DNA from: Candidatus Nomurabacteria bacterium
GTDB lineage: Bacteria > Patescibacteriota > Minisyncoccia > Phycocordibacterales > UBA2100
Direction: 5' to 3'
Assembly: GCA_943359395.1 (NCBI GenBank)
Contig: CALRHH010000003.1
Coordinates: forward strand, 24,846-88,845
Length of the DNA stretch: 64,000 nucleotides
Below, one piece after another: positions 844 to 19,866 of this stretch. The notes beneath the pieces were generated by a model, which was given only the letters and a program-made list of their open reading frames with translations, did no database searches and was not told the origin of the DNA. The translations under genes and the position numbers were made by a program. How positions within the stretch are numbered: position 1 is the first letter of the stretch; each line of letters opens with the position of its first letter.

Positions 844-1020
844 TAAATCATATGGAAAACGGCACAACAACACTCATTGTCCTGAAAGAACTGGCTGGTA
901 ACCCGCCTCCCCACTTGAACGCCATCCAAGAATTGCTCGCGCCGCACGTCGGACTCCTTACGACACTCTGGATCTCCGTGTGGATAACGACAGCCGCCGT
1001 TCTCCTCGTACAACCCTGGC

Positions 1021-2730: not shown

Positions 2731-2733
2731 AAA

Positions 2734-2772
2734 GCGGAGGTGCGTTGCATCGGTTGATGCATCGTACCTCCG
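2734..2772. terminator. Compound GC-rich hairpin (GCGGAGGT...ACCTCCGC with an inner ATGCATC-GGTT-GATGCAT palindrome). Bidirectional terminator between the + strand PRTase-PQQ gene and the - strand small secreted peptide gene.
   Basis: Perfect 8-bp outer stem and nested inner palindrome read directly. A-run on one side gives a U-tract for the minus-strand transcript. Confidence 0.45.
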
Positions 2773-2821
2773 CATGCACCGGAGAAAACTATCTCCGAGT
2801 GTCAGGTGGCCACGGGGCCTT

Positions 2822-3052
2822 TTATTTCGGGAAAAACTGATTGCAGACCCCGGCACCATGCTTCTTGATGTTGTAACCGAGCTTCCGCCGGTTGTCCAGG
2901 CACTCGGCCCGGGTTCTCGGCAGCGGCAGAACCATCGTCTTCCCGTCGATCGTCGTCCGGGTAATGAACTGCCCCCGCTGGGCTTCAGCCGAGGAGACGG
3001 AGGCCGCCGCGAGCAGCACGCCCGCAACGGCAATCTTCAACAATGTCTTCAT
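2822..3052 (-). CDS. Small secreted protein (76 aa) with N-terminal signal peptide and basic ~55-aa mature region with two Cys. Last gene downstream of the ligase operon.
   Basis: N-terminus MKTLLKIAVAGVLLAAASVSSAEA is a classical Sec signal peptide with AxA cleavage site. Sits immediately downstream, same strand, of the 3146-9540 operon and is followed by a terminator hairpin. Confidence 0.4.
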   Translation of the reverse strand: MKTLLKIAVAGVLLAAASVSSAEAQRGQFITRTTIDGKTMVLPLPRTRAECLDNRRKLGYNIKKHGAGVCNQFFPK

Positions 3053-3145
3053 CAGAAGCTCCCATCTGCTGCGGGATGGATTTGGTGCGGACTCAATGCC
3101 CGCTCCGCAGCTGGCTGGAATTATACCTCATATTTTTTACAAAAG

Positions 3146-5802: not shown

Positions 5803-5854
5803 ATAGCGGAATGATACTGCTTGCCCGAATACACGTCTACGCTCGAGCTTTTGC

Positions 5855-9142: not shown

Positions 9143-9540
9143 GGACAATCGCCGCCGCCATCGCCACCGCCGCCACAATCGCCGCCGCCACAATCGCCGC
9201 CGCCATCGCCCCCACAACTGCCGCCACAATCTCCGCCGCCGCAGGCGGGTACCTCAGGGATTGGGGCGTCTGCATGGGCGATTCCAACTGTGTCGGATGC
9301 CCACGGAGAATACCCCGTCTTCGACGACGAGCCAAAGAGGACCAGAATGAACCCTATTGCCACAAGAAATACCGACGGAAGGTACCTTCCCGACGACTCC
9401 CCACCATTATGTGCATTTTCTGCGGTATCGTTATCGGACATAGAGTTTAATTGTTGCGCAACAATGCAACTATTGTACTCCTCCGTCCCGTCGCTGAAAA
9501 CAGGACGTGTGGATAAAAAGTGCGGGCCATCCGGACGCAT
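9139..9540 (-). CDS. Small membrane protein with one TM helix and a C-terminal Cys/Gly/Asp tail made of imperfect (GGGDC)n repeats. Alternative start at Met34 (ATG 9438-9440) would give ~100 aa.
   Basis: Translation ends ...PACGGGDCGGSCGGDGGGDCGGGDCGGGGDGGGDCP. TM segment YLPSVFLVAIGFILVLF. Encoded by a 15-nt tandem DNA repeat (ACAATCGCCGCCGCC, the reverse complement of GGC GGC GGC GAT TGT). First gene of the coupled operon. Confidence 0.45.
   Translation of the reverse strand: MRPDGPHFLSTRPVFSDGTEEYNSCIVAQQLNSMSDNDTAENAHNGGESSGRYLPSVFLVAIGFILVLFGSSSKTGYSPWASDTVGIAHADAPIPEVPACGGGDCGGSCGGDGGGDCGGGDCGGGGDGGGDCP
9145..9245. repeat. Imperfect 15-nt tandem repeat (~6 units) encoding the GGGDC pentapeptide repeat on the minus strand.
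   Basis: Units acaatcgccgccgcc / atcgccaccgccgcc read directly. Produces spurious Arg/His-rich ORFs in the other frames. Confidence 0.8.
9449..9464. promoter_or_regulatory. Perfect 16-bp palindrome ATTGTTGCGCAACAAT between the ArsR-family gene and the divergent operon. Candidate operator.
   Basis: Read directly. Lies 8 nt upstream of the Met34 ATG of the small GGGDC gene and ~115 bp from the ArsR start. ArsR/SmtB-family repressors typically bind imperfect 12-2-12 inverted repeats near their divergent targets. Confidence 0.35.
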
Positions 9541-9577
9541 TGCGAGAGCGCATAAATAGTTGCATACTTCAGAAACT

Positions 9578-9880
9578 ATGAAGATCCGTCGACCGCTCCC
9601 CCGCTCCGCCTATGAGAGGAACGCGGAAACGTACAAGATATTGGCAAATTCAAAACGTCTGGAGATTTTAAATTTGCTTCGCGAACAGGAAATGGCCGTG
9701 CAAGATTTAGTGAAGATTCTCAAAATATCGAAGGCAAATGTGTCCCAGCACTTAGCGTTGCTCCGCCACGAGAAGTTGGTCACGGTGCGGCGGAAAGGAT
9801 TGAATGCGTATTACAATATTGTGGACCCGCGGATAGTAGAACCGTGCCGTATTCTTTACCAGCTTTTCCAAAAATCGTAG
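9578..9880 (+). CDS. ArsR/SmtB-family winged-helix transcriptional regulator, divergent from the GGGDC-ligase operon.
   Basis: HTH region LANSKRLEILNLLREQEMAVQDLVKILKISKANVSQHLALLRHEKLVTVRRKG matches the ArsR family pattern (..R..IL..L...E..V.EL.......Q..VSHHL..L...GLV...R.G). The Cys/His metal-sensing motifs of metal-responsive members (ELCVCDL, DxHx10H) are absent. ATG at 9578 preferred over TTG at 9560. Confidence 0.7.
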   Translation: MKIRRPLPRSAYERNAETYKILANSKRLEILNLLREQEMAVQDLVKILKISKANVSQHLALLRHEKLVTVRRKGLNAYYNIVDPRIVEPCRILYQLFQKS

Positions 9881-10046
9881 CGAGTGTACGTCGTGCGTAC
9901 GGAAATTGGAATGCTCTCACATAAGTGTCCACACCCACCGTCTTGTTTTTGCATGAAAGCGCAGTTGATGCGTTGTCTGTCACGGACATAAGAACATGGT
10001 ACAGTGCATACATCAGAAAAAGTAATTCTTCATACGCCCAAAATCT

Positions 10047-10742
10047 ATGTTTTTTAGAGATATCTTTAGCCGGACTCGTCACTCGATTCGCAGATTGAAG
10101 CCTCCGGTTCTGTATAGTGCGGTTGTAGATACAAGTAACTACACGTTGCTGGCAATCGGGACGTACACCCCCGCTTTACTTTTTTTGAACGAGTCGACGA
10201 TGGACACAGAGTATGTGCCGAGTGCGACGCTCGCCGACGACGTACTTCTTGTAATCAAGCCGGGACCCCGCGCGTATCCGGAGTTGTCGTGGGACAGCTC
10301 TAAGCGGACATTTAAGAAAACGAATCCCGCTATTGTCACAGAAGATATGCGGGAGCGCGCAGTGTTTGCTTCCCGGAAGGCACAGGCGATTGCGCAAGTT
10401 ATCCGAATGATAAATCGCTTCAGGAGCAGGATAAGCACTGGTTTTTTATTCCAAGAGGTTATCTATGCCGAGAAGGAAAGACAGGCCCGGGGCCTGAAAG
10501 ATGCAGGCTTTGCAGAAAAAAGTGGGGCCGAAGCTCCATACGTCGTCCAGTATGCCGACTTCTGCGGAATTCCGCTCCGGCAAGCGGCCGAGGAAATATT
10601 GCTTCAGGCTCAGCTCGACCACGAGCACCTTGCAAAGACGGAAAAAATACGGCTCGCTCTATTCAAAAAGATACGACTCGCAAAAACAAAGGAGGAGTTG
10701 GACGAAATTATCAACACCTACCGGGACGACGGGGTGGTATGA
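10047..10742 (+). CDS. Hypothetical protein, translationally coupled (ATGA) to the downstream PP-loop gene. True start may be the internal Met (MDTEYV, ~10198).
   Basis: ORF only. No recognisable motifs. 4-nt overlap with the next gene. Confidence 0.3.
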   Translation: MFFRDIFSRTRHSIRRLKPPVLYSAVVDTSNYTLLAIGTYTPALLFLNESTMDTEYVPSATLADDVLLVIKPGPRAYPELSWDSSKRTFKKTNPAIVTEDMRERAVFASRKAQAIAQVIRMINRFRSRISTGFLFQEVIYAEKERQARGLKDAGFAEKSGAEAPYVVQYADFCGIPLRQAAEEILLQAQLDHEHLAKTEKIRLALFKKIRLAKTKEELDEIINTYRDDGVV

Positions 10743-11836
10743 CGCGGCTCATCTACGCCCTCCCTTCAGCGATAGGCACTCCTTCCAACCTCGAACATCC
10801 GGGGATGCGACGCTACTCCTTGTTTTTCAAGCTCTACGGGAATTGGACAATACCGGTCGACAGGACCGGCACCGTCGCCATGCCCGTGAGAACTCTCTCG
10901 CTTTTCCCTATCCCGCAGTTCCGGCCGTTTTCGAAAACATTCGAAGAGCTCTGCGACGAGCGCGCCATACAGGTGCTCGCCGGTGCCGAAAGGCTTTCGA
11001 CTACCATGTACGTACTGTACTCAGGCGGGATAGACAGTACCTGCCTTCTCGTGTCCTTGCTCAAACACGCGACGCCAGAACAAAGGGAACATATCGTCGT
11101 GCTTCTGTCCCATGAGTCCATCGTGGAGAACCCTCGATTTTACGATGAGCATATCCGCGGGAAACTCCGCGTGGGCTCAAGCATTTCATTCACTGAGCTT
11201 ATTGGGGAAGACCGCTACTTGCTCTCCGCCGAGCACAACGACATGGTCATGGGGTCGGAGAAAATCGGAAAAATGATGACGCAGTACGGCCCTGAAAGCA
11301 TTTACCGGCCGTACAACCGGGAGACGGTTGCCGGACTTTTCTCGGCTGTGTTGTCTGGAGATACGGATATGGCTTATTTTTACGTGGATCTCTTCGAGCG
11401 TATACGCGACGTCGCGCCCGTGCCTATAGAAAACAACATGGATTTCCTCTGGTGGGCGAATTTCGTGGTCAAGTGGCAATCATGTTTCCATTACATCCTT
11501 TTGTTCACACCTCCGCGCAACGCGCACAAAGTCACGCAAAAGTATCTCGACAAGCGATTCATTTCTTTCTACAACACCGACGAGTTCCAGTTGTGGAGCA
11601 TGAACAACCCTGACAAACGCATCAAAGACACATGGAAGAGTTACAAGTGGGTGTGCAAGGACATCATTTACAAGTACAACAAGGATGCGGAGTATCGTGA
11701 CAACAAGACAAAAAAAGGCTCGCTTCTTCCTCTCATAGGATTTAATCCTCCATTTCGTTTTATTGCCGAGAATATGCGCTTTAGCAATGACGTACAGTTG
11801 GAAGAATACTTTAGTCCAGTAAATGACTTCACGTAA
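10739..11836 (+). CDS. Second PP-loop ATP pyrophosphatase superfamily protein, paralog-like to 5855-6742.
   Basis: PP-loop motif YVLYSGGIDSTCLLVSL. Start may be internal, since ~95 aa precede the PP-loop. Confidence 0.5.
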   Translation: MTRLIYALPSAIGTPSNLEHPGMRRYSLFFKLYGNWTIPVDRTGTVAMPVRTLSLFPIPQFRPFSKTFEELCDERAIQVLAGAERLSTTMYVLYSGGIDSTCLLVSLLKHATPEQREHIVVLLSHESIVENPRFYDEHIRGKLRVGSSISFTELIGEDRYLLSAEHNDMVMGSEKIGKMMTQYGPESIYRPYNRETVAGLFSAVLSGDTDMAYFYVDLFERIRDVAPVPIENNMDFLWWANFVVKWQSCFHYILLFTPPRNAHKVTQKYLDKRFISFYNTDEFQLWSMNNPDKRIKDTWKSYKWVCKDIIYKYNKDAEYRDNKTKKGSLLPLIGFNPPFRFIAENMRFSNDVQLEEYFSPVNDFT

Positions 11837-11920
11837 GAGGGGCGGCACACTTCTCTCACGTCGCCGTACTATGCGGCAGTCTACTCAGGTCTTCAAGATT
11901 GCCGATGCTATACTTTCCGC

Positions 11921-13450
11921 ATGAAAAAAGATGCGCGTGTACTATTGGCGACACTCGCACTCATTGTCGCCGGCACTTTAGCGCTCAGTGCCCTTCCCGA
12001 AACGCGAGCGAAGCCCAATATAATTCTCATATCAATTGATAGTTTGCGACCCGACCATATGGGAATCTACGGATATTCACGGGAAACTACTCCGTACATT
12101 GACGCCTGGGCAAAAAACTCCGTCGTGCTCGATAACTATTTCGCCGCGGCGTACCTCACTCCCATTTCTGAAACGAGCGTCCACACGGGAAAGTACCCTT
12201 TTACAAACGGCGTCATTAATTTTGAATCCGGACTCTCAAGCGGAACACGCACGCTCGCAGAAATACTTCAAAACAACGGCTGGCAGACTGCCGCATTTGG
12301 CTCATCGCCTGAATTCAGCCGTGAGAGGCCGGCGTTGTTCCGGAATTTCTCGCGGGGATTTGACGTGTATGAGTTTGAAAAAAATGACGCGAATATAGCT
12401 TGGTATGGTAGAGGAAATTCGCCCGTTCCCGATGCTATCGCCTGGATGAATAAGACGGGGGGTTCGGGCGATAAACCTTTTTTTGTCTGGCTCGTCATCG
12501 GTAGTGCCCACTGGCCGTACGGCCAGGATGAGCCGGTGCATTTTAGCGACCCGGAATATGACGGATTCTTCAACGTACCCGCGAAGGCCTTCGAGAGTAC
12601 GTTGGCCGCGCTTTTCAACGGCCGCTACGGTCGTGTATACAACGGCGCTATGTACGACAACGGTAAAATAATCAAAAATGACGCATCGGCAGACCTCAAA
12701 TACATAGTCGACCGTTATGACGATGGCCTCGTCTCGACCGATCGGTCGCTGAAAAATCTTTTCGAATTTCTCAACATGCCGCAGATGCACAACACCATCG
12801 TAATCTTGCAATCGGAACACGGCGAAGACCTGGGAGATCGCGGCACTGTCGCCCATTACGATATTTCAGACGTCACCGTTCATGCGCCGCTCATCATACA
12901 AATGCCAGGGCTTCCCGCACATCGCTCCAGCACTCTCGTTTCAGGCGTTGACCTCGCGCCCACGCTCCTCAGCGCACTCAACCTCGACAGTGAAGCGGCC
13001 GGCATGGACGGAAAAAGCTTTTATCCATTTCTCTCCAGCTCCGAGGGCGTCTCGCGTACTGAAGTGTTTCTCGCCCGGACTCCGTTGTGGGAGAGAGTCA
13101 TTGCTCCACCCGAGCCTTGGCTCGCGCCATTCGTGGCGGAGGACAACATCGAACATTTCTACGATACGGGGATCCGGACGGACGATTGGAAGTTGATACA
13201 CCGGCTCGCGCGAGACGCTATCGCGCAATACTCTTGGTATGGACGTCTTACGGGTGTACCTGTTGTATTACCTGAATATCAGCTCTATGACCTCAAGAAC
13301 GACCCCGAAGAACGAAACGATGTCTATGACACACGTAAGAATGACAACGTGGTGAGTGCCTTGCGGGACAAATTGAACGCGTGGGAGAAAAAGATGAATG
13401 AGTCTTTGCCGAGCTATTCACCTCCTGAGCAAATACAGCCATACTTCTAA
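11921..13450 (+). CDS. Secreted/membrane-anchored sulfatase-family (alkaline-phosphatase superfamily) enzyme. Candidate phospho-transferase (LtaS/EptA/OpgB-like) rather than a true sulfatase.
   Basis: Signal peptide MKKDARVLLATLALIVAGTLALSA. N-terminal IDSLRPDHMGIYGY metal-binding start typical of PF00884-type enzymes. No clear C/S-x-P-x-R formylglycine motif around the TP...TG region. Confidence 0.6.
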   Translation: MKKDARVLLATLALIVAGTLALSALPETRAKPNIILISIDSLRPDHMGIYGYSRETTPYIDAWAKNSVVLDNYFAAAYLTPISETSVHTGKYPFTNGVINFESGLSSGTRTLAEILQNNGWQTAAFGSSPEFSRERPALFRNFSRGFDVYEFEKNDANIAWYGRGNSPVPDAIAWMNKTGGSGDKPFFVWLVIGSAHWPYGQDEPVHFSDPEYDGFFNVPAKAFESTLAALFNGRYGRVYNGAMYDNGKIIKNDASADLKYIVDRYDDGLVSTDRSLKNLFEFLNMPQMHNTIVILQSEHGEDLGDRGTVAHYDISDVTVHAPLIIQMPGLPAHRSSTLVSGVDLAPTLLSALNLDSEAAGMDGKSFYPFLSSSEGVSRTEVFLARTPLWERVIAPPEPWLAPFVAEDNIEHFYDTGIRTDDWKLIHRLARDAIAQYSWYGRLTGVPVVLPEYQLYDLKNDPEERNDVYDTRKNDNVVSALRDKLNAWEKKMNESLPSYSPPEQIQPYF

Positions 13451-13456
13451 CCTGCC

Positions 13457-14914
13457 GTGCTACGATGTGATTCCAATATGAAAACACGCAAAGCATATTC
13501 TCGCGGTTTTTCCGTCGCCTTCGGATTAGCGGCAGTTGCCCTCGTCGCAATTTTCATTTTTGTACTGACCCGGCCGGCGCAGCACCCTGCAGTATGTCCG
13601 GATTGTAATGTGATTATCGTTGGCATTGATACGCTCCGGGCGGACCGGGTGCACGCGTTTGGTTACCAGAGGGAAACGACGCCGAATCTCGACAAGCTCG
13701 CGACAAATGGATACGTCTTTACCAATGCCGTCTCCGCTTCCAGCTGGACCGTTCCGTCTTTCATGTCGATTATGACGAGCGTGTATCCGTCGGTTCACAA
13801 GGTGGTCAATAAATTTTCGACCTTCAATGCGAAAGAGAAGAAAATATCAAATCTCAAAGAACTCTCGCCGCAGATAACGACGCTTGCAGAGGCAATGAGA
13901 AAAGCCGGGTACGCAACCGGCGGATTCACGGGCGATGCCGGGGTTTCCGGTCAATTCGGATACAAAGAGGGGTTCGACGTGTACACCGACGAAAAAGCGT
14001 TCGGCGGCCTTTCAAACAGTGAGGGGCACGCGCTCGGATGGCTCGACTCGCTGCAAAAAGACAAGAAATTCCTCATGTTTTTCCACGGATACGATTTGCA
14101 CGGGCAGTTTGATATACCAATCGACCTGCAGCGCTTCGTTCCCTCAGGGTACCGAGGTTCGCACACCGGTTTGCATGACGACGAAGCGGCGTTGAGGGAG
14201 GCGCAGCTCCACGGACCGCTGTCTTACAACGACGCCGATGTGGAGTTCTGGAATGGTTTATATGACAGCAAGATCCGTGCGGCGGACGAACAACTGGGTC
14301 ATTTTCTCGCGGAGCTCGAAAAGCGCGACGTGCTCAAGAATACCGTAATCATCGTGCTTTCGGATCATGGCGAGGAGTGGTTTGAACACGGCGGCATCGA
14401 CCACGGCCATACACTCTACGATGAACTCGTCCATGTGCCGCTCGTCATACACGTACCCGGCGGCGGCACTGCATCAATACCTGGGCAAATTTCCACTATG
14501 GATGTGGCGCCGACAATCTTCGACATACTCGGCATCATTCCTGATGATGCGTTTAGGAAGCAGGCGTACGGTCAAAGCCTCGTACCTTATTTCTCCGGCA
14601 AAAAAGACGGCCGTGATGTATTCCTTGAGACGGACTACCGCGACGCTATTCATAAACGTGCCGTGCGCAGTGCAGATGGATGGAAATACATCCGTAACAT
14701 GGTGAACGGAGAGGAGGAACTCTACGATTTGAATGCTGATCCTGCGGAGAAACAAAATCTCATTTCATCAAGGCAGAAAAAAGCTGATGATTTGAAGGCA
14801 AAGCTCTTCGCGCACATCACGAATGACCTTCACGCCGACCCTGCGGCTCGTTTTGAAGTAGGGTGTCTGCCGGTCTATCCGACCGAATGTCTCGAGAAAG
14901 CCGTGCTGCAATAA
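13457..14914 (+). CDS. Second membrane-anchored sulfatase-family (alkaline-phosphatase superfamily) enzyme.
   Basis: TM anchor VAFGLAAVALVAIFIFVL. Then IVGIDTLRADRVHAFGY. Putative nucleophile region SSWTVPSFMS has Thr where sulfatases carry Cys/Ser and lacks the Arg of CxPxR, which fits LtaS/EptA-type transferases. Confidence 0.6.
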   Translation: MLRCDSNMKTRKAYSRGFSVAFGLAAVALVAIFIFVLTRPAQHPAVCPDCNVIIVGIDTLRADRVHAFGYQRETTPNLDKLATNGYVFTNAVSASSWTVPSFMSIMTSVYPSVHKVVNKFSTFNAKEKKISNLKELSPQITTLAEAMRKAGYATGGFTGDAGVSGQFGYKEGFDVYTDEKAFGGLSNSEGHALGWLDSLQKDKKFLMFFHGYDLHGQFDIPIDLQRFVPSGYRGSHTGLHDDEAALREAQLHGPLSYNDADVEFWNGLYDSKIRAADEQLGHFLAELEKRDVLKNTVIIVLSDHGEEWFEHGGIDHGHTLYDELVHVPLVIHVPGGGTASIPGQISTMDVAPTIFDILGIIPDDAFRKQAYGQSLVPYFSGKKDGRDVFLETDYRDAIHKRAVRSADGWKYIRNMVNGEEELYDLNADPAEKQNLISSRQKKADDLKAKLFAHITNDLHADPAARFEVGCLPVYPTECLEKAVLQ

Positions 14915-15046
14915 AAGATGCGGCTGCCAAGACTGCCGGAACTCGACCTTCTCAAGCTTTCCCTTGGCTCTTTCGTAGGCCTTATGGAAAACCCCGGAGA
15001 GACGGACGATTTCTTGTCACACGAGGAGCGGATGGTCAATCAATAC

Positions 15047-15080
15047 AAAAACCGCCCGCTGTATGGCGGGCGGTCTTTTG
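15047..15080. terminator. Bidirectional rho-independent terminator (ACCGCCCGC-TGTATG-GCGGGCGGT followed by TCTTTTG) between the convergent sulfatase-like and DctP-like genes.
   Basis: 9-bp GC stem with flanking A-run/T-run read directly. Confidence 0.6.
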
Positions 15081-15097
15081 AAACATGGCGCGACTCA

Positions 15098-16132
15098 CTA
15101 GGAATTTTGAATCCGCTTCACCAAGTCTTTTGAGTTGAAATAGTCGGCATACATATCGTATACCTTTGATGTGATGTCCTTAAACTTCTCTATTTCGCCT
15201 GCCGGCATACGGACAACCTCGACACCCTCGCGCTCACACTGCGAGAGAATATTCGGAATATCTGCAACCGATTCTTTGCGCTCCAAGCGTGCGGCGTTTT
15301 GAGCGGCCTTGACCATGATTTTCTGCGTCTTGCTGTCAAGCGACTGAAAGAAGTCCTGATTTACGATGATGGAGGTGAGGAAGAGGCTGTGCGCTGTATC
15401 ATTGACGTACTTGAACGACTTATTGTGTTCGAGAGGAAATACGCGCACATACGTCGATTCGCCGGCATCAATAACGCCTTCGTCCGCCGCCCTGTTCATC
15501 TCCTCAAGAGGAATTCCTTCGTAATGAGTAGCGCCAAGAAGCTCAAACGTATCGACGGCTATAGGGCTGCGACTGGTGCGAACCCTCATCCCCTTCCAGG
15601 AATCAACCGTGTCGGCTCTGAAATTCGCCGGGACAATGCGGTATCCGCCCGAGTAGGTGAAGCTCATCGCTTTAATGTTGGATTGCTTCGATACACCCGC
15701 TAATAGTTCGGCTCCGATTTCTCCGTCGAGAACAGCGTCCGCATGCTTGTGGTCACGAAACAGGAACGGGAGGTCGAGAGCGTGCAGGTCCTTGTTGTGA
15801 TCGGCAAGCCACGTCGTATAAATATGGCTCATCTCAATTGCACCCGAATCAATAAGCCCGAGCAAGGCATCTTTAGTGATTTTCTTACCGTTGTTGTATT
15901 TCGTTGCATAATCACTGAGCGAGAGAACCTCGATGTCGAATTTTCCACCTGTTTTTTCATTCACCTCTTTGGTGAATCTCTCGGCCACCTTCAGGAAGAG
16001 CCCTATCGGCTCATGCGCTATTACCCAGCGAATTTTTTTGGTCATATTATTTATTCTTAATTTGATAATTGCTGCTAATGAAGTGTTGTTGCACCACCAA
16101 ACAATAGGTCGACAAACGCCTATTGTATACAT
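15098..16132 (-). CDS. DctP-like (TRAP-type) solute-binding protein homolog with no adjacent DctQ/DctM permease. Likely start at MTKKIRW (~16045).
   Basis: N-terminal 'IRWVIAHEPIGLF..AERF...V.E.T.G.F.IEV' and 'GLIDSGAIEMSHIY' resemble the DctP family signatures (W.lahv.....h, qaGaiDm). No obvious signal peptide. Confidence 0.45.
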   Translation of the reverse strand: MYTIGVCRPIVWWCNNTSLAAIIKLRINNMTKKIRWVIAHEPIGLFLKVAERFTKEVNEKTGGKFDIEVLSLSDYATKYNNGKKITKDALLGLIDSGAIEMSHIYTTWLADHNKDLHALDLPFLFRDHKHADAVLDGEIGAELLAGVSKQSNIKAMSFTYSGGYRIVPANFRADTVDSWKGMRVRTSRSPIAVDTFELLGATHYEGIPLEEMNRAADEGVIDAGESTYVRVFPLEHNKSFKYVNDTAHSLFLTSIIVNQDFFQSLDSKTQKIMVKAAQNAARLERKESVADIPNILSQCEREGVEVVRMPAGEIEKFKDITSKVYDMYADYFNSKDLVKRIQNS

Positions 16133-16227
16133 GGTACCCCTTTAGGGAGCTCTATAGAAAATGAACTGTGGATAACAGGCAGAGCATGGCAATAAAGCAA
16201 GCCGCCCACCCCTTCCCCGGAGAACGA

Positions 16228-17067
16228 TCATCCGGCGGCCTCGATATGGAGGGGTCCGCTTATTGCATCCGATGCCCAGTGGAGGCGCAGGTTGGGGTAC
16301 GGACGGGCGACCCACATGCCGCCGATAGGTTCCCACGTCTCGTGTCCGGGATGAAAACCAAAATAAGGCCGGAGCATAACGTTATACGGCGTTCCACCGA
16401 TATCCATCTTCATGGGGGCGATAAACGGCTGGAGGAGCATATGCTGATTCCGCTGAAGTGCTTCCGTTATTTGAGTGCGCGTGGACTTTCCCTTGAGGCC
16501 TCGACCCCAGGTAAACACGTCGTGAGCCTGCATCCCGTTCACCGGTTTTACGGTAAACGATCCGTGCCAAGGCAACATCGCTTCGTCGCTGACTTCTCTC
16601 CACCAGCCGAGCTTGATTCCGTAGGATTTACTATGCCGGTACCACAGCGGCGTGACCGAGCGGGCGGTAAGTAAACCGAACAGTTCTTTGAACCGGGGGT
16701 CGTCTCTACGCATCCCATTACGGATGAAAAGAAGGGCACCGCTTTCTGTCGCCTCGGGAAGGGGTATCTCAGGGAGCCATAGATGCTCGTCTTGAGTAGT
16801 ATTTGGAATAGGACCGACGACGAGCGAAAATGGCGGCCACACCTTTTCTTTAAAATTGGTAAGTGTATTCTTGAAATCAGATGAAACAATCGCCCCGTAA
16901 CCCATACCGATAGGACAGCTTTCTATTTCGTACGAGAGAAAATCCTTTTTGTCGCCGGAGAGAACTCCGTCGAAACGCGCGACGATGCTCGGGACGCCCC
17001 ATTGTGTTTGCGGAAACGTCCCTTCTTGGGGATATACCTTCCCCCATGCATCAAGTGTCGCGACCAT
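16228..17067 (-). CDS. Conserved hypothetical, paralog of 17824-18747. Weak ATP-grasp-like ligase features.
   Basis: Shares extended blocks with its paralog (…QPFIAPMKMDIGGTPYNVMLRPYF…WASDAISGPL). Order of motifs (R.D.V…YE.E.C…K-containing 'FTVKPVNG'… 'LQPFI..M.MDI') is reminiscent of the ATP-grasp fold, but this is not diagnostic. Confidence 0.35.
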   Translation of the reverse strand: MVATLDAWGKVYPQEGTFPQTQWGVPSIVARFDGVLSGDKKDFLSYEIESCPIGMGYGAIVSSDFKNTLTNFKEKVWPPFSLVVGPIPNTTQDEHLWLPEIPLPEATESGALLFIRNGMRRDDPRFKELFGLLTARSVTPLWYRHSKSYGIKLGWWREVSDEAMLPWHGSFTVKPVNGMQAHDVFTWGRGLKGKSTRTQITEALQRNQHMLLQPFIAPMKMDIGGTPYNVMLRPYFGFHPGHETWEPIGGMWVARPYPNLRLHWASDAISGPLHIEAAG

Positions 17068-17154
17068 CTGTTTTGTTACAACAGTAAGGTATGGTGAATG
17101 TGATGTCTGTCGTATAGGAGAATATCCGGCCGGCGTGCGTATATGTGCGGATAT

Positions 17155-17739
17155 TCATGAATGAGCGTGCTCTTGTATAAGTTCCCAGAGGGCGGAAATC
17201 TTCTGGTCGGCAATCTGTTGTGCGGCGATTCCCTCTTTGCCGGAAGTCCGGTGAAAAAAAATGGGGGTGGCTGGCGGAAACGGCTGCTGTTTTGCATGCG
17301 CCTTCTCACGCCTCCGTAAAGCACCGTCAACGGATTCTATTTTGCCTGCCTGACGTATACGTTCCAAGCGTACTCTAACCGAAGCTTCGTCGGATTCTAT
17401 CCACACAAAAACTACTGGCGTGTAGTACTTTCGTGCTTCTGACAGAAAATACTCACGTGGGATATCACGGTGAAATGTATCGTCTACGACGACATCCGGG
17501 TACATTTTCGACAACAGAGGAAAATCTTTGCAAACGTTTTCGTATACTTTTACGCGGTCCTTATCCGTCCTTGGTTGCAGGATTCTGAAATCGCCACGCC
17601 GGTCGAACGTTGGGTGCCGGATTTTCTTCCTATCAATATCGTAGTGATACAATCCGAATCTTGCCGCAAGCTGATCGGCAAGCGTCCGCGCCCCGTTTCC
17701 AAGTAACCCGCCAAGTACGACAAGCATACGTGAGCACAT
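17155..17739 (-). CDS. P-loop NTPase/kinase-like protein with a degenerate Walker A (GGLLGNGART, no Lys).
   Basis: N-terminal LVVLGGLLGNGARTLADQLAARFG resembles AAA_33/gluconate-kinase-type small kinases but lacks the canonical GK[ST]. May be a pseudo-kinase or use a different fold. Confidence 0.3.
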   Translation of the reverse strand: MCSRMLVVLGGLLGNGARTLADQLAARFGLYHYDIDRKKIRHPTFDRRGDFRILQPRTDKDRVKVYENVCKDFPLLSKMYPDVVVDDTFHRDIPREYFLSEARKYYTPVVFVWIESDEASVRVRLERIRQAGKIESVDGALRRREKAHAKQQPFPPATPIFFHRTSGKEGIAAQQIADQKISALWELIQEHAHS

Positions 17740-17823
17740 AGTAGCCCCGTGTGAGAAAATTGCATACAGCCGTGAAGAAAATCATGGAAGAAGTATGCTA
17801 CCCTATAGTCCCGTAACTGAATC

Positions 17824-18747
17824 ATGAAACTCAAATCTATCCGGCATCACGACCAGACGTTTACATACACTGACCACACCCTGACATTCCCCTCGTTCGC
17901 CACAGATGCGCTCCATCGTGCACTTGTGCAGTGGCAAAAGGTCTTTCCCCGCGAAGAGACGCTCATACAGATGCGGCACGACGTGCCGAGCCTGTTCGTG
18001 CGTTTCGACTGCGTCATTTCGCCGGCGGGCGATGTCCGGATATACGAATTGCAGGAGGGGTGCGCATGGGTCGGATACACGGGAATCGCGAACTCGGCAT
18101 TCCGTGGGATTCGCGACAGAATAGTTCAGGAGGAATGGCCTCATCTTAGGGTACTTCGCTCAGACAAGCAGACCGACAAAGACGATGACTTGTGGCTCTC
18201 GCGCTCGAATATCACGGAGGCACTCAGGAGTCCGGACCCACTTATGGTGCGAAGCAACATGCCGCTTCTCGCGGAGGAACTACGCACCATCATCATCAGG
18301 AAATCCGTACGACCCGTCATGATGCACAACGACAAGAGCTACGGCGAGGCTCTCGGATGGTGGCGGGTGGTGGATTGGGAGGAGAGTTCACACGGAGAAG
18401 AGAAGATTCCATGGCACGAGGCCTTCGTATTGAAACCGCGGTTCGGGTTCGGGAGTTCGGATATCATGCTCTGGAATCCACATAACCGCGTCGGGAGAGC
18501 GACACGGACTCAGGTACTGCGCGTGCTCAAAAGACGCGGCACGATGTACCTCCAGCCTTACATACCCCCAATGCATATGGATATCGACGGTACTCCGTAT
18601 AATTTTATATACCGGCCGTATTTCATATACTCCGGAAAACAAAAACAGTGGGTGCCGGCCCATGGTATATGGACCGCGCGTCCGCATCCCGCTCTCAGAA
18701 TCCACGGAGCATCCGATGCGATAAGCGGCCCGCTCAAGATGCAATAG
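17824..18747 (+). CDS. Conserved hypothetical, paralog of 16228-17067 (ATP-grasp-like features), divergently transcribed.
   Basis: Blocks VRFDCVISPAGDVRIYELQEGC, FVLKPRFGFGSSD, YLQPYIPPMHMDIDGTPYNFIYRPYF, GASDAISGPL align with the paralog. Confidence 0.35.
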   Translation: MKLKSIRHHDQTFTYTDHTLTFPSFATDALHRALVQWQKVFPREETLIQMRHDVPSLFVRFDCVISPAGDVRIYELQEGCAWVGYTGIANSAFRGIRDRIVQEEWPHLRVLRSDKQTDKDDDLWLSRSNITEALRSPDPLMVRSNMPLLAEELRTIIIRKSVRPVMMHNDKSYGEALGWWRVVDWEESSHGEEKIPWHEAFVLKPRFGFGSSDIMLWNPHNRVGRATRTQVLRVLKRRGTMYLQPYIPPMHMDIDGTPYNFIYRPYFIYSGKQKQWVPAHGIWTARPHPALRIHGASDAISGPLKMQ

Positions 18748-18887
18748 CACATACCCAACCTCCCGTTTGAAGCGTTAATCCTCAGACGCACCAGCGTGCT
18801 AAACTCGCGTCATGACTTGGCGGAAAGCGCAGGGTATCGGAATAGACGTACTGGCAATATCGACCATGGCGAGAGAGAAACCAAATA

Positions 18888-18914
18888 GAAGGGGCGCCTA
18901 CAACGGCGCCCTTC
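18888..18914. terminator. Convergent terminator hairpin GAAGGGGCGCC-TACAAC-GGCGCCCTTC.
   Basis: 10-bp GC-rich stem between the + strand gene ending at 18747 and the - strand small gene ending at 18935. Confidence 0.5.
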
Positions 18915-18934
18915 TCAGGTTTGCCGAGCATCAG

Positions 18935-19174
18935 TCAGCGCCGCTCAACGCGGGTGTCCTGAACCTTGCGGGACATCCACTCGCCAGTCTGCATACACGC
19001 GGCGTGGAACTTGGGGCACTCCCCGAGACACTTTTGCGAGCTGTTAAACTCTGTGGTGCAGACCCGCACGCACATTTTGCGATAGCCAGTGCAGGTCTCA
19101 GCACTCGCCGTCGACGAAACGGCAAACACCGCCCCGGCGCACAAGGCAACGGTCAGAAGAGCAATTCTCCGCAT
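18935..19174 (-). CDS. Small secreted Cys-rich protein (79 aa; signal peptide plus ~55-aa mature peptide with 6 Cys).
   Basis: Signal peptide MRRIALLTVALCAGAVFAVSSTASA. Mature ETCTGYRKMCVRVCTTEFNSSQKCLGECPKFHAACMQ… has 6 Cys, consistent with 3 disulfides. Terminator hairpin downstream. The overlapping + strand ORF is low-complexity and less likely to be real. Confidence 0.4.
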   Translation of the reverse strand: MRRIALLTVALCAGAVFAVSSTASAETCTGYRKMCVRVCTTEFNSSQKCLGECPKFHAACMQTGEWMSRKVQDTRVERR

Positions 19175-19413
19175 GATTCCCTCCTCGGAAATGCGAGCCT
19201 ATCGCGACATTCTTGCGTCACGATTTCAGACTGCGCTCACAATACAATTGTTAGTACCATGAGTCAATTCTAGAGAAACCCCTCAATCAAAGAACCCCGT
19301 CCGATGGGATTTAAAATCTCTGCGCCGCAGTCCCTGGGAGCTTGCGGCGTGAATCTAAAGCCGCCCTTGGAGGGCATATTTGTTTATGGTCTCCGCATTG
19401 GATGCGTCGCCCG

Positions 19414-19451
19414 TGATTTTCTGATTTCTCTTGGAGAGAAATCAGAAAATC
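19414..19451. terminator. Perfect 17-bp inverted repeat (TGATTTTCTGATTTCTC-TTGG-GAGAAATCAGAAAATCA) that starts on the rpsJ stop codon. Terminator-like hairpin without a strong U-tract.
   Basis: Read directly. The arms are exact reverse complements. Confidence 0.45.
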
Positions 19452-19866
19452 ACATCATCTTAACGTCTATTGAAACTCCGGACGGAAGGTCGATATTGGT
19501 CAATGCTTCAATGACTTTCGGCGCAGGATTCAAAATATCTATCATGCGCTTGTGGATGCGCATTTCGAACTGCTCGCGGGAGTCTTTATCGATAAATGCG
19601 GCACGGTTGACGGTGTATTTCTTTATATCGATAGGGAGCGGCACAGGACCGATGACTGTCGCATTGTAGCGAGCGGCAGTGTCGATGATTTGCTTCACGG
19701 ACTTGTCGAGGATGCCGTGCTCGTAGGCGCGGACCTTGATACGGAGGCGGTGAGCAGAATCAGATTTCTTAGCGCGTGGAGTAGGTGCAACGGAAGAGCC
19801 GTCTGCCGACTTGGCAGATTTGGCGCGCGGCTTGCGTGCCTTTTTGACTGTCTCTTCCGCTGTCAT
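19450..19866 (-). CDS. rpsJ: 30S ribosomal protein S10 (NusE) with an N-terminal Lys/Ala-rich ~40-aa extension.
   Basis: Core RLRIKVRAYEHGILDKSVKQIIDTAARYNATVIGPVPLPIDIKKYTVNRAAFIDKDSREQFEMRIHKRMIDILNP is unmistakably S10. The listed 423-aa ORF is an upstream in-frame extension antisense to the histidine kinase gene and is rejected. The ATG at 19864-19866 (MTAEETVKK) is the preferred start. Confidence 0.85.
   Translation of the reverse strand: MTAEETVKKARKPRAKSAKSADGSSVAPTPRAKKSDSAHRLRIKVRAYEHGILDKSVKQIIDTAARYNATVIGPVPLPIDIKKYTVNRAAFIDKDSREQFEMRIHKRMIDILNPAPKVIEALTNIDLPSGVSIDVKMM

What the first reader, a model, noticed from the sequence alone, without database searches (positions are those of the whole stretch)
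15098..18747. Divergent pair of paralogous ATP-grasp-like proteins flanking a degenerate P-loop kinase-like gene and an orphan DctP-like binding protein
16228-17067 (-) and 17824-18747 (+) are clear paralogs. Shared blocks include …YLQP[FY]I[AP]PM[KH]MDI[GD]GTPYN[VF][MI][LY]RPYF… and …ASDAISGPL. They are transcribed divergently from an 85-bp region. Their motif order loosely resembles ATP-grasp carboxylate-amine ligases. Between them and downstream lie a P-loop kinase-like protein whose Walker A lacks the Lys (GGLLGNGART) and a DctP-like solute-binding protein with no signal peptide and no DctQM permease. A binding protein plus two ligase-like paralogs plus a (pseudo)kinase could form a small-molecule or peptide ligation module or a sensing module. 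I recognise none of these as a characterised family.
Basis: partly seen in the sequence, partly recalled or inferred. Interest (0 to 1): 0.55.

Follow-up and report, generated by a model that had tools for sequence, protein, structure and literature searches.

The report
Undescribed small ATP-grasp ligase pair
Two old gene copies in an uncultured ultra-small bacterium (Patescibacteria) belong to an undescribed family of small ATP-dependent bond-forming enzymes built like glutathionylspermidine synthetase. One copy is broken by a frameshift, and the neighbouring "transporter" binding protein is a cytoplasmic protein also found in large phages.

Summary
All four ORFs exist. The two paralogs are 39% identical (E 2e-63). 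The kinase-like protein lacks the Walker A lysine. The DctP-like protein has no signal peptide and the window has no DctQ/DctM.

The ATP-grasp guess is supported and can be sharpened. An AlphaFold model of paralog B (pLDDT 94.6) best matches E. coli glutathionylspermidine synthetase. The family conserves the GspS/TryS catalytic residues in the same order. No Pfam or NCBIfam model recognises it, yet it has about 431 cluster representatives, and all named relatives are Patescibacteria.

New points:
- Paralog A carries a one-base frameshift at codon 25. Its ancestral start overlaps the P-loop gene's stop codon.
- In close relatives, the recurrent neighbours of the ligase gene are a PP-loop ATPase with a ~230-aa partner and a transporter gene. 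More distant family members are always followed by an M20 peptidase gene.
- The P-loop protein is a recurrent but optional neighbour.
- The DctP-like protein is very conserved (68-94% identity) and occurs on at least 17 viral contigs. There a PP-loop ATPase, not the ligase, is its usual neighbour.

Most likely function: ATP-dependent ligation of a carboxylate to a positively charged amine, acting on an imported small molecule. The substrates are unknown.

The parts
17824..18747 (+). Paralog B: intact 307-aa GspS-type (permuted) ATP-grasp ligase of an undescribed family.
   Evidence: AF2 model pLDDT 94.6, pTM 0.92. Foldseek top hits are 2io7 GspS (E 4e-6, TMq 0.52), 5oev and 3k1t, then Ddl, PurK, GshB and LysX. 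Catalytic residues R60, D62, E75, Q77, K171, K204, Q244 and R286 are conserved in 83-100% of 174 representatives. No Pfam or NCBIfam hit reaches threshold.
16228..17158 (-). Paralog A (A-type subfamily): frameshifted gene. The ancestral start ATG at 17158 overlaps the P-loop stop (ATGA). An extra T near 17086 shifts the frame. The N-terminal 35-codon ORF stops at 17051. The 279-aa ORF restarts at ATG 17067.
   Evidence: The upstream frame encodes MNIRTYTHAGRIFSYTTDITFTIP, which matches ortholog N-termini. Deleting one T gives 309 aa colinear with P0079 (309 aa, 56% identity, E 6e-134). The sequence is identical in three assemblies. All catalytic residues are retained.
17155..17739 (-). 194-aa P-loop kinase-fold protein with a degenerate Walker A (GLLGNGART).
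   Evidence: Pfam AAA_33 is sub-threshold (19.4 bits against a cutoff of 27). AF2 model pLDDT 87.6. Foldseek matches gluconate/sugar kinases, APS kinase, the PFK-2 kinase domain, Kti12, PSTK and chloramphenicol phosphotransferase at E about 1e-7 to 1e-6. The family Walker A varies: AKT, ART, TRT, RRP, RGF, RKD, KRS.
17740..17823 (.). 84-bp divergent intergenic region between the P-loop gene and paralog B.
   Evidence: Coordinates, sequence. No inverted repeat and no sigma-70-like match.
15098..16045 (-). 315-aa cytoplasmic DctP-family binding protein with no signal peptide. It keeps the ligand-carboxylate arginine (R136).
   Evidence: Pfam DctP E 6e-45. There are more than 1300 homologues; the best 120 clusters are 73-94% identical and nearly all 314-318 aa. 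'SGGYR' aligns with the conserved Arg of 4n8y, 4xfe and 4p47. It occurs on at least 17 IMG/VR viral contigs at 68-77% identity.
15047..15078 (.). Bidirectional hairpin terminator that closes the minus-strand P-loop / A / DctP unit.
   Evidence: 13-bp stem with 8 G-C pairs, followed by a T-run on the minus strand.
10047..10742 (+). 231-aa partner protein of the PP-loop ATPase. There is a 4-nt overlap with the next gene.
   Evidence: Co-occurs with the PP-loop gene next to ligase genes in L004, L010, L013, L014, L018, L019 and L020. Only a weak PHROG hit.
10739..11836 (+). 365-aa PP-loop ATPase (SGGIDS motif). It is the most consistent neighbour of both the B-type ligase and the DctP-like protein.
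   Evidence: S95-G-G-I-D-S100 is invariant. Only sub-threshold PP-loop, Asn synthase and LarE matches. It sits 5-6 bp upstream of the ligase gene in L004 and L007. A homologue lies within about 3 kb of DctP in 15 of 18 viral loci.
11921..14914 (+). Two membrane-anchored 'sulfatase'-family (alkaline-phosphatase superfamily) genes. In this genome they sit between the PP-loop gene and the DctP gene.
   Evidence: Pfam Sulfatase and NCBIfam partial hits. In L010 and the P0223 contig the PP-loop and DctP genes are directly adjacent without them.
19450..19770 (-). rpsJ (ribosomal protein S10), the conserved anchor of the variable island.
   Evidence: 86-92% identical S10 lies next to the island in L004, L006, L007, L018, L019 and L020. 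In the P0223 contig the island lies between S10 and L3.

Best explanation
The two paralogs are old duplicates, an A-type and a B-type subfamily, of an undescribed family of small (~300 aa) ATP-grasp amide ligases. All named relatives are Patescibacteria. The family has the permuted domain order of glutathionylspermidine/trypanothione synthetases.

Inferred mechanism:
- ATP binds between the two-lysine lid (K171, K204, Q244) and the N-terminal hairpin.
- D62, E75 and E/Q77 hold Mg2+.
- A substrate carboxylate is phosphorylated to an acyl-phosphate, stabilised by R60 and R286.
- The acyl-phosphate is attacked by an amine held by the conserved acidic residues D120/D121 and D298. These occupy the positions of the spermidine-binding E391 and D610 of E. 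coli GspS. The amine is therefore probably cationic, such as a polyamine or a basic amino acid.

Paralog B is intact. Paralog A was translationally coupled to the P-loop gene and now carries a 1-nt frameshift at codon 25, so at best a truncated enzyme is made.

The genes lie in a variable island downstream of rpsJ. The island combines several carboxylate-activating enzymes (PP-loop ATPases, PaaK/CapK-like adenylating enzymes) with transporters. The cytoplasmic DctP-like protein sits where relatives carry MFS or SSF transporters and keeps its carboxylate-clamping arginine. It most likely binds the organic-acid substrate or product.

The P-loop protein, with a variable Walker A but invariant substrate/lid arginines, is most likely an accessory phosphate- or nucleotide-binding subunit or a weak kinase.

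Shown: fold, residue conservation, gene neighbourhoods, frameshift. Inferred: chemistry, substrate class, roles of the DctP-like and P-loop proteins.
For: Paralogy: E 2e-63.

Fold: model pLDDT 94.6. The three best PDB matches are all permuted-type ATP-grasp enzymes: GspS 2io7, the eukaryotic-type GSH synthetase-like 5oev, and 3k1t. Classical Ddl, PurK, GshB and LysX follow at lower TM-scores.

Secondary-structure order: hairpin 58-78, then a small alpha/beta domain 83-165, then the lid 171-245, then C-terminal strands 250-306. This equals subdomains A-B-C-A of TryS (PMC2427367).

Catalytic residues: the GspS/TryS set R, D, E, N, K, K, R plus the adenine-binding Gln maps in order onto R60, D62, E75, E/Q77, K171, K204, Q244 and R286. 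Local motifs are alike (GRMDF..LKVYEYN vs VRFDC..VRIYELQ; YAVKPIAGRCGSNIDL vs FVLKPRFGFGSSDIML; ESDIEPL vs ASDAISGPL). Conservation is 83-100% over 174 representatives.

Amine site: the acidic pair D120/D121 is 95-97% conserved and D298 80%. E391 and D610 bind spermidine in EcGSPS.

Context:
- The PP-loop gene is 5-6 bp upstream of the ligase gene in L004 and L007.
- Transporters or DctP occupy the same slot in L010, L013, L014, L018, L019 and L020.
- An M20 peptidase gene lies immediately downstream in all four distant-clade loci. This is a synthetase/amidohydrolase pairing like the two domains of GspS.
- The DctP-like protein keeps its Arg.
- The ancestral A start overlaps the P-loop stop as ATGA, and one terminator follows DctP.
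Against: Sequence-only links to GspS are weak. hhalign gave E about 0.01 with probability below 10%. No Pfam GSP_synth hit was found.

Residue equivalences come from motif order and a Foldseek match of TM 0.52, not from a superposition I could inspect. K171=K498 is my own assignment; the hhalign alignment placed that segment differently.

No substrate is identified. The polyamine-like amine is an analogy only.

DctP is adjacent to a ligase gene in only two sequenced contexts and is otherwise tied to the PP-loop ATPase, including in phages that lack the ligase. The P-loop protein is absent from many ligase loci.

Paralog A is frameshifted, so the 'pair' may now be a single working enzyme.
Confidence: 0.6

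Rival explanations
1. The ligases modify a protein or a ribosomally made peptide rather than a free metabolite. Examples would be adding an amine or amino acid to a C-terminal or side-chain carboxylate, as RimK, tubulin-tyrosine ligases, graspetide synthetases, or the E. coli peptide-spermidine ligases YgiC/YjfC do. The target could be a ribosomal protein or a product of the island.
For: The island sits inside the S10 ribosomal-protein cluster. Related islands carry YcaO plus a nitroreductase-type gene, which are typical peptide-modifying enzymes. The closest characterised relatives include peptide-spermidine ligases. The PP-loop and ligase families are both multiplied within islands.
Against: No conserved small precursor ORF was found next to the ligase genes; the downstream ORFs differ between loci. 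Transporters in the conserved slot and the M20 peptidase partner in the distant clade fit small-molecule chemistry better. No graspetide synthetase ranked high in the fold search (7m4s at rank 38, E 0.34).
Confidence: 0.2
2. The four genes are neighbours by accident of a hypervariable island and do not work together. The DctP-like protein belongs functionally with the PP-loop ATPase, a phage-shared pair. The P-loop protein has its own role, and the ligases act alone.
For: Island content differs greatly between relatives. A PP-loop homologue lies within about 3 kb of DctP in 15 of 18 viral loci, while the ligase was not found in viral collections. DctP evolves far more slowly than its neighbours: in L010 it is 88% identical against 64% for the ligase and 42% for the P-loop protein.
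Against: The ancestral ATGA overlap couples the P-loop and A genes, and a single terminator follows DctP. Beside the window, DctP and P-loop homologues share a contig in L010 and the 462,403-bp P0223 contig. Matching contig lengths point to two more cases (6,984 and 8,864 bp). P-loop homologues lie beside or near ligase genes in L006, L010, L011 and L019. DctP occupies the transporter slot beside the ligase in L010.
Confidence: 0.3
3. The module is non-catalytic: a ligand-sensing or regulatory unit in which the ATP-grasp-like and kinase-like proteins are pseudoenzymes.
For: The Walker A lysine is missing, and neither the Walker A lysine nor the Walker B aspartate is conserved in the P-loop family. 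Paralog A is frameshifted. A histidine kinase gene lies 1.3 kb away.
Against: Every ATP-grasp catalytic residue is conserved in 83-100% of 174 family representatives, including both paralogs. There is no DNA-binding or signalling domain in any of the four proteins. The histidine kinase lies beyond rpsJ and is not a conserved neighbour of the ligase genes.
Confidence: 0.05

Closest known systems
Glutathionylspermidine synthetase / trypanothione synthetase / E. coli YgiC and YjfC peptide-spermidine ligases (Pfam GSP_synth, PF03738)
   Same: It is the best structural match (2io7). The subdomain order A-B-C-A is the same. The ordered catalytic set R-x-D, E-x-N/E/Q, K, K, Q, R is the same, with similar local motifs. 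Acidic residues sit at the positions of the polyamine-binding E391 and D610. In the distant clade it is paired with an amidohydrolase gene (M20), as GspS is fused to an amidase.
   Different: It is about 300 aa, against about 390-420 aa for the synthetase domain. The long N-terminal helical region is missing and subdomain B is much smaller. No Pfam or NCBIfam model detects it. The third Mg ligand is E/Q/D instead of N. The partner hydrolase is M20, not CHAP. Substrates are unknown. All named relatives are Patescibacteria.
Circularly permuted ATP-grasp proteins (e.g. PDB 3k1t, 'putative gamma-glutamylcysteine synthetase') and eukaryotic-type glutathione synthetases (5oev)
   Same: They are the second and third best fold matches. 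The Mg-binding hairpin precedes the ATP lid in the sequence.
   Different: TM-scores are low (0.37-0.43) and identity is about 10%. There is no sequence-model match. These proteins are larger and their gene contexts differ.
Classical ATP-grasp ligases (Ddl, GshB, LysX/ArgX, MptN, DcsG)
   Same: The central lid motif 'FVLKP-x2-G-x-G/S-S-x-D/N-I ... ylQpfI' gives weak HMM hits to MptN, DcsG and GSH-S_ATP. LysX works with an M20 hydrolase (LysK) in the LysW pathway; that pairing is from my own knowledge, not tested here.
   Different: The domain order differs and only partial structural alignments are obtained (TM 0.25-0.37). There is no LysW-like carrier gene nearby.
TRAP-transporter DctP-family solute-binding proteins
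   Same: There is a full-length Pfam DctP match, and the ligand-carboxylate arginine is kept.
   Different: There is no signal peptide and no DctQ/DctM. It is found in phage-like contigs. It is unusually conserved (68-94% identity), and a PP-loop ATPase is its usual neighbour.
Gluconate kinase / APS kinase / AAA_33-type P-loop kinases
   Same: The fold matches (TM 0.55-0.64), as does the Gly-rich P-loop with helix. Lid and substrate-side arginines are invariant (R95, R144).
   Different: The canonical Walker A Lys is replaced (A17, with R18 next to it). The family varies at this site. The Walker B Asp and the usual catalytic Asp are not conserved.

Membership tests
ATP-grasp superfamily | ATP-grasp fold (lid domain plus kinase-like sheet enclosing ATP) | tested here: met
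   AF2 model pLDDT 94.6. Ranks 1-28 of the Foldseek PDB search are all ATP-grasp enzymes.
ATP-grasp superfamily | Phosphate-binding lysines, a Gly-rich flexible loop, a hinge Gln/Glu for adenine, and acidic Mg2+ ligands | tested here: met
   K171 95%, K204 98%, 'KPxxGxG/S' loop, Q244 100%, D62 95%, E75 95%, E/Q/D77 97% of 174 representatives.
ATP-grasp superfamily | Match to a curated sequence model above its threshold | tested here: not met
   No Pfam hit for either paralog. NCBIfam MptN/DcsG score 12-18 bits against cutoffs of 350-360. Only sporadic sub-threshold hits among 35 members.
ATP-grasp superfamily | ATP-dependent carboxylate-amine ligase activity | not testable with these tools
   Needs an enzyme assay.
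GspS/TryS/YgiC-type synthetases (PF03738) | Permuted order: the Mg-binding R-x-D...E-x-N hairpin is N-terminal of the two-lysine lid, and the C-terminal strands carry the catalytic Arg | tested here: met
   Secondary-structure order in the model compared with the subdomain description in PMC2427367. Motif order R60, D62, E75, Q77, K171, K204, Q244, R286.
GspS/TryS/YgiC-type synthetases (PF03738) | Significant sequence similarity to family members or the family model | tested here: not met
   hhalign against Gss alone gave probability 0.3%. Against Gss+YgiC+YjfC it gave E 0.012 and 0.009, probability below 10%. No GSP_synth hit in Pfam scans.
GspS/TryS/YgiC-type synthetases (PF03738) | Full-size synthetase domain (~390-420 aa) with an N-terminal helical region and a large substrate subdomain | tested here: not met
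   The family is 270-335 aa. Only about 55 residues precede the hairpin, and subdomain B is about 85 residues.
GspS/TryS/YgiC-type synthetases (PF03738) | Polyamine as the amine substrate, bound by E391 and D610 equivalents | tested here: inconclusive
   D120/D121 and D298 are conserved at the corresponding positions. No superposition or ligand data are available.
TRAP transporter solute-binding protein (DctP family) | DctP-family fold/sequence and the conserved ligand-carboxylate Arg | tested here: met
   Pfam DctP E 6e-45 and NCBIfam TRAP_S1 at 121.7 bits against a cutoff of 50. R136 aligns with the conserved Arg of solved structures.
TRAP transporter solute-binding protein (DctP family) | Export signal (periplasmic or lipoprotein location) | tested here: not met
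   It starts directly at the first beta-strand. Nearly all of the best 120 homologue clusters are 314-318 aa. Solved binding proteins have about 25 more N-terminal residues.
TRAP transporter solute-binding protein (DctP family) | Genetic linkage to DctQ/DctM membrane subunits | tested here: not met
   There is no DctM- or DctQ-like polytopic ORF in the 64-kb window. None was annotated in the related loci whose gene tables were retrieved.
P-loop NMP/sugar-kinase-like (AAA_33, gluconate kinase, APS kinase) | Kinase-type P-loop fold | tested here: met
   Model pLDDT 87.6. Foldseek E about 1e-7 to 1e-6 and TM 0.55-0.64 to gluconate, sugar and APS kinases.
P-loop NMP/sugar-kinase-like (AAA_33, gluconate kinase, APS kinase) | Canonical Walker A GxxxxGK[ST] | tested here: not met
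   The window has GLLGNG-A-R-T. Homologues have AKT, TRT, RRP, RGF, RKD and KRS. Only one (L019) has Lys at the canonical position.
P-loop NMP/sugar-kinase-like (AAA_33, gluconate kinase, APS kinase) | Pfam model above threshold | tested here: not met
   AAA_33 scores 19.4 bits against a cutoff of 27.
PP-loop ATP pyrophosphatase superfamily (for 10739-11836) | SGGxDS PP-loop motif at the N-terminus of a Rossmann-like domain | tested here: met
   S95-G-G-I-D-S100 is invariant in 11 homologues, including phage copies. The profile matches the LarE PP-loop region at E 0.005.
PP-loop ATP pyrophosphatase superfamily (for 10739-11836) | Membership of a defined PP-loop family (TilS, QueC, Asn synthase, LarE and others) | tested here: not met
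   Only sub-threshold hits limited to the motif region.

The most novel reading that the evidence does not exclude
The island downstream of rpsJ in Minisyncoccia may encode a pathway specific to the candidate phyla radiation (CPR). In it, minimal GspS-type ligases, PP-loop ATPases and a cytoplasmic DctP-type protein would build an acyl- or peptidyl-polyamine-like conjugate from an imported organic acid, for example a low-molecular-weight protective or redox compound analogous to glutathionylspermidine. Separately, the DctP / PP-loop pair shared with large phages may be a new two-component enzyme. In that enzyme a transporter-type binding protein has been recruited to the cytoplasm as the substrate-presenting subunit of an adenylating enzyme.
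Probability: 0.15. Interest if true: 0.75.

Novelty: new variant of a known kind. Interest (0 to 1): 0.45.

Why it matters
Patescibacteria have tiny genomes with very little recognisable biosynthesis, so any conserved ATP-dependent ligase family in them is a lead to chemistry these organisms cannot do without. This family has about 431 clusters at 50% identity and is invisible to Pfam and NCBIfam. Yet it carries a complete GspS-type active site in about 300 residues, which makes it the smallest version of that architecture I am aware of and a tractable target for substrate screening.

The side finding may be the more surprising one. A signal-less DctP-type binding protein is 68-94% identical across Minisyncoccia and large phage-like contigs and usually has a PP-loop ATPase nearby. 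This suggests a soluble, non-transport role for a TRAP binding protein.

Tried and rejected
Sequence links:
- hhalign of the family against E. coli Gss alone found nothing (probability 0.3%).
- Global hhalign failed.
- A local hhalign against Gss+YgiC+YjfC gave only weak, though colinear, alignments.
- A PDB sequence search found only DcsG, at E 0.09.

Locus searches:
- With the narrow alignment it gave only 3 genome and 8 metagenome loci.

Defence or phage origin of the ligase was rejected. PADLOC gave nothing for the four proteins of the finding, only two chance-level hits for the PP-loop gene. PHROGs gave only a weak hit for the 231-aa protein. There was no ligase homologue in GenBank phages or IMG/VR and no significant BFVD fold match. 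DctP hits in GenBank phages were only distant (19-27% identity) ordinary TRAP proteins.

Other negatives:
- No operator-like inverted repeat or promoter consensus in the 84-bp divergent region.
- Recent horizontal transfer of the locus is not indicated, since GC is 0.50-0.54 throughout.
- Programmed +1 frameshifting in paralog A was considered. It seems unlikely because CCU-U is not a known slippery +1 site (my own knowledge), but it is not excluded.
- Literature searches for the family, for DctP in Parcubacteria or phages, and for the island found nothing relevant.

Full report
**1. What is in the sequence**

The four ORFs exist as described:
- a DctP-like gene at 15098-16132(-), whose true start is 16045
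- paralog A at 16228-17067(-)
- a P-loop gene at 17155-17739(-)
- paralog B at 17824-18747(+)

A and B align over their full length with 39% identity, E 2e-63. The P-loop gene and B diverge from an 84-bp spacer (17740-17823). That spacer has no inverted repeat and no sigma-70-type consensus. P-loop, A and DctP share the minus strand, and a 13-bp-stem hairpin terminator follows them at 15047-15078. GC content is even across the region at 0.50-0.54.

The organism is a member of Patescibacteria, class Minisyncoccia (Parcubacteria). This follows from the names attached to homologues and related contigs.

**2. Paralog A is frameshifted**

The 87 bp upstream of A's ORF encode, in another frame, MNIRTYTHAGRIFSYTTDITFTIP. 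This matches the N-termini of A-type orthologs. That ATG (17158) overlaps the P-loop stop codon as ATGA, which is a classical translational-coupling arrangement.

Removing one T at about 17086 (CCT[T]ACT) gives a 309-aa protein. It is colinear from residue 1 to 307 with P0079 (309 aa, 56% identity, E 6e-134). The same sequence is present in three assemblies of essentially the same strain.

It lacks the three N-terminal strands and part of the first helix seen in the B model. All catalytic residues are still present, so the lesion is recent, or a truncated protein is made by re-initiation.

A has its own orthologs: 56 of 207 family proteins are closer to A than to B. A and B therefore represent an old duplication.

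**3. What the paralogs are**

Neither paralog matches any Pfam family. NCBIfam gives only 12-18-bit hits to the ATP-grasp enzymes MptN and DcsG over the central motif. A scan of 35 family members gave only sporadic sub-threshold ATP-grasp hits.

The family is real and sizeable. The word-indexed search found 65 homologues, all unnamed or 'hypothetical'. A full profile search found 431 representatives of 50%-identity clusters, 223 of them at E below 1e-30.

An AlphaFold2 model of B built on 35 sequences has pLDDT 94.6 and pTM 0.92. Foldseek against the PDB gave these matches:

| Rank | Match | E-value | TMq |
|---|---|---|---|
| 1 | E. coli glutathionylspermidine synthetase, 2io7 | 4e-6 | 0.52 |
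| 2 | Glutathione-synthetase-like protein, 5oev | 1e-4 | 0.37 |
| 3 | 'Putative gamma-glutamylcysteine synthetase', 3k1t | 9e-4 | 0.43 |
| lower | PurK, Ddl, GshB, LysX/ArgX, biotin carboxylase | 3e-3 to 0.6 | 0.2-0.37 |

The top three all have the Mg-binding hairpin ahead of the ATP lid, which is the permuted order. The classical enzymes align only partly.

The model's secondary-structure order is:
- beta-hairpin 58-78
- small alpha/beta domain 83-165
- lid 171-245
- C-terminal strands 250-306

This reproduces the A-B-C-A subdomain order described for trypanothione synthetase (PMC2427367).

That paper lists the residues conserved between LmTSA and EcGSPS: R328, D330, E344, N346, K513, K548 and R613, plus Q583 for adenine. 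The family's conserved residues fall in the same order with similar spacing (B numbering, 174 representatives):

| Residue | Conservation |
|---|---|
| R60 | 89% |
| D62 | 95% |
| E75 | 95% |
| E/Q/D77 | 97% |
| K171 | 95% |
| K204 | 98% |
| Q244 | 100% |
| R286 | 83% |

The local motifs also resemble those of E. coli Gss:
- GRMDFCMDERGLKVYEYNAD vs VRFDCVISPAGDVRIYELQEG
- GNKAILPILW vs NDKSYGEALGWW
- YAVKPIAGRCGSNIDL vs FVLKPRFGFGSSDIML
- IYQQ vs MYLQ
- ESDIEPL vs ASDAISGPL

Profile-profile comparison with Gss+YgiC+YjfC picks out exactly the R-x-D...E-x-N segment (E 0.012). It also gives a colinear alignment over residues 8-307 (E 0.009). These scores are weak, so membership of PF03738 by sequence is not established.

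In EcGSPS, E391 and D610 contact the spermidine part of an inhibitor. The family has an almost invariant D120-D121 at the equivalent spot, the N-terminus of the first helix after the first strand of subdomain B. It also has D298 in the ASD motif that aligns with ESD610. This is the basis for proposing a cationic amine substrate. It is an inference.

**4. Gene context**

I collected 17 loci carrying family members, plus the window. I then mapped the window's proteins onto them by tblastn.

*B-type clade (Minisyncoccia, 41-66% identical to B).* The ligase gene lies in a variable island next to rpsJ.
- The recurrent neighbours are a ~230-aa protein and a 365-aa PP-loop ATPase, often in two or three copies (L004/L012, L007, L010, L013, L014, L016, L018, L019, L020).
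- In L004 and L007 the PP-loop gene ends 5-6 bp before the ligase gene.
- Where there is a gene between them, it is a polytopic membrane protein: MFS in L018 and L019, SSF-like with 12 TM in L020, a protein with at least 6 TM in L013 and L014. In L010 it is the DctP-like gene.
- In the window the homologous pair is at 10047-11836, separated from DctP by two membrane-anchored 'sulfatase'-family genes.
- Other island genes vary. They include a PRTase-beta-propeller fusion, two PaaK/CapK-like adenylating enzymes, a second PP-loop protein and Cys-rich membrane-anchored proteins. L006 has PAPS synthase plus a sulfotransferase. Other relatives have YcaO and/or a nitroreductase gene.
- In the one contig that spans it, the island lies between rpsJ and rplC. 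In the window fusA, tuf and rpsJ lie on the minus strand, and the island fills everything downstream.

*Distant clade (31-35% identity, including a Saccharibacteria genome).* The ligase gene is followed within about 30-90 bp by an M20 peptidase gene in all four loci examined (L009, L021, L022, L023). A synthetase/amidohydrolase pair on one amide bond is what GspS embodies as a fusion protein.

**5. The P-loop protein**

Only nine homologues were found in 5.8 billion proteins. Three more were found by tblastn in L006, L011 and L019. The model (pLDDT 87.6) matches gluconate/sugar kinases, APS kinase, the PFK-2 kinase domain, Kti12, PSTK and chloramphenicol phosphotransferase.

The Walker A is variable: GNG-ART here, and AKT, TRT, RRP, RGF, RKD and KRS elsewhere. 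A basic residue is always present at position 17 or 18, but a canonical Lys only once (L019). The Walker-B-like Asp and the usual catalytic Asp are not conserved either. D59, R95 and W113 are invariant, R144 is nearly so, and the 'FHR..PR' motif is well conserved. This fits a phosphate- or nucleotide-binding accessory protein or a weak, atypical kinase better than a standard kinase.

It lies beside or near ligase genes in L006, L010, L011 and L019. Matching contig lengths suggest two further cases (P0209/P0003 and P0210/P0019). Beside the window, it shares a contig with DctP homologues in L010 and the 462,403-bp P0223 contig. Matching contig lengths suggest two more (6,984 and 8,864 bp). It is absent from many ligase loci.

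**6. The DctP-like protein**

It is a full-length DctP-family protein and keeps the arginine that clamps the ligand carboxylate in TRAP binding proteins (R136). It starts at the first beta-strand. The window contains no DctQ or DctM.

It is strikingly conserved. There are more than 1300 homologues. The best 120 clusters are 73-94% identical, and nearly all are 314-318 aa.

It also occurs on at least 17 IMG/VR viral contigs at 68-77% identity, and a partial copy at 60% on one more. These include contigs of 206 kb and 170 kb with tail-fibre and T4 gp13-like genes, at GC about 0.4. In 15 of 18 viral loci a PP-loop homologue lies within about 3 kb, mostly directly adjacent, although it is only 23-29% identical to the window's copy. 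Many of these loci also hold a ~490-aa radical SAM gene and a Cys/Asn-rich ~122-aa ORF.

The ligase family was not found in viral collections. The strongest partner of the DctP-like protein is therefore the PP-loop ATPase. Its link to the ligases is limited to a subgroup of Minisyncoccia.

**7. Most likely mechanism and rivals**

*Shown:* an ATP-grasp fold of the GspS type with a complete and conserved active site; two old subfamilies; a frameshift in A; operon-like linkage to PP-loop ATPases, transporters or M20 peptidases; a cytoplasmic carboxylate-type binding protein; a degenerate P-loop protein.

*Inferred:* B (and formerly A) phosphorylate a substrate carboxylate and couple it to a cationic amine. 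The substrate is an imported small molecule. The DctP-like protein binds that organic acid or the product. The P-loop protein is an accessory.

The main rival is modification of a protein or peptide carboxylate, of the YgiC/YjfC, RimK or graspetide type. It is favoured by the ribosomal-operon location and by YcaO in related islands. It is disfavoured by the transporter and M20 partners and by the lack of a conserved precursor ORF.

A second, non-exclusive rival is that the four genes are only neighbours in a hypervariable island. A sensing or pseudoenzyme reading is unlikely given the conservation of the catalytic residues.

**8. Novelty**

I found no description of this family, of the DctP/PP-loop pairing or of the island in the searchable literature. 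The fold and the probable chemistry are known. The family, its minimal size, its apparent restriction to Patescibacteria and its contexts are new. I rate it a new variant of a known kind, of moderate interest. The phage-shared cytoplasmic DctP/PP-loop pair is the most unexpected by-product.

Noticed in passing
window 15098-16045 (-); L025, L026, L031-L047: The signal-less DctP-like protein is 68-77% identical to copies on at least 17 IMG/VR viral contigs (up to 206 kb, GC about 0.4). A PP-loop ATPase homologue lies within about 3 kb in 15 of 18 loci. The PP-loop neighbour itself is only 23-29% identical to the window's copy, so the DctP-like protein is under unusually strong constraint.
   Followed up: partly
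L026 6608-9654 (and 10-11 other viral loci): Next to the phage DctP/PP-loop pair lie a conserved ~490-aa radical SAM gene with a Cys-rich C-terminus, a ~370-aa ORF and a ~122-aa ORF full of CNC/CAC repeats (…CNCACNACNSACNCNCGNC…NCNCNCACNCNCACNCNC). This may be a modified peptide or a metal-binding protein.
   Followed up: no
window 1-19400 and 19450-19770; P0223 contig: The whole region downstream of rpsJ is a variable island. In a related 462-kb contig, 13 kb of such genes (aminotransferase, P-loop, DctP, PP-loop, beta-propeller, nitroreductase, YcaO) separate rpsJ from rplC, which are normally adjacent.
   Followed up: partly
window 18935-19174 (-): A 79-aa ORF with a clear signal peptide and 8 cysteines is flanked by a promoter-like site (19267-19239) and a terminator-like hairpin (18911-18892). 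It overlaps, and looks more credible than, the 153-aa plus-strand ORF (18812-19273) called by gene finders.
   Followed up: no
L009, L021, L022, L023 (distant family members): An M20 peptidase gene follows the ligase gene within about 30-90 bp in all four loci. Some of these ligases carry an extra ~160-aa N-terminal domain with a Rossmann-like beginning (MRLLFV..GD..G) and no Pfam match.
   Followed up: partly
window 11921-13450 and 13457-14914 (+): The two 'sulfatase' genes have DSLRPD and DTLRAD where true sulfatases have C/S-x-P-x-R, and both have an N-terminal membrane anchor. They look like Ser/Thr-nucleophile alkaline-phosphatase-superfamily transferases or hydrolases rather than sulfatases. 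A relative (L006) instead carries PAPS synthase plus a sulfotransferase next to the ligase.
   Followed up: no
window 3146-5802 (-), 5855-6742 (-), 6739-7947 (-), 1021-2730 (+): The island also holds two tandem PaaK/CapK-like adenylating enzymes, a second PP-loop protein (295 aa), a Cys-rich N-terminally anchored 402-aa protein with paralogs in related islands, and a phosphoribosyltransferase fused to a PQQ-type beta-propeller. All but the second PP-loop protein (found only in L018) recur in two or more related islands (L004, L006, L018, L019, L020).
   Followed up: partly
L018 8758-9684 and 10001-10927; L004, L010, L019: Ligase genes and the PP-loop/230-aa pairs are repeatedly duplicated within single islands: two B-type ligases in L018, and two or three PP-loop genes in L004, L010 and L019. 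This suggests diversification of the pathway.
   Followed up: no
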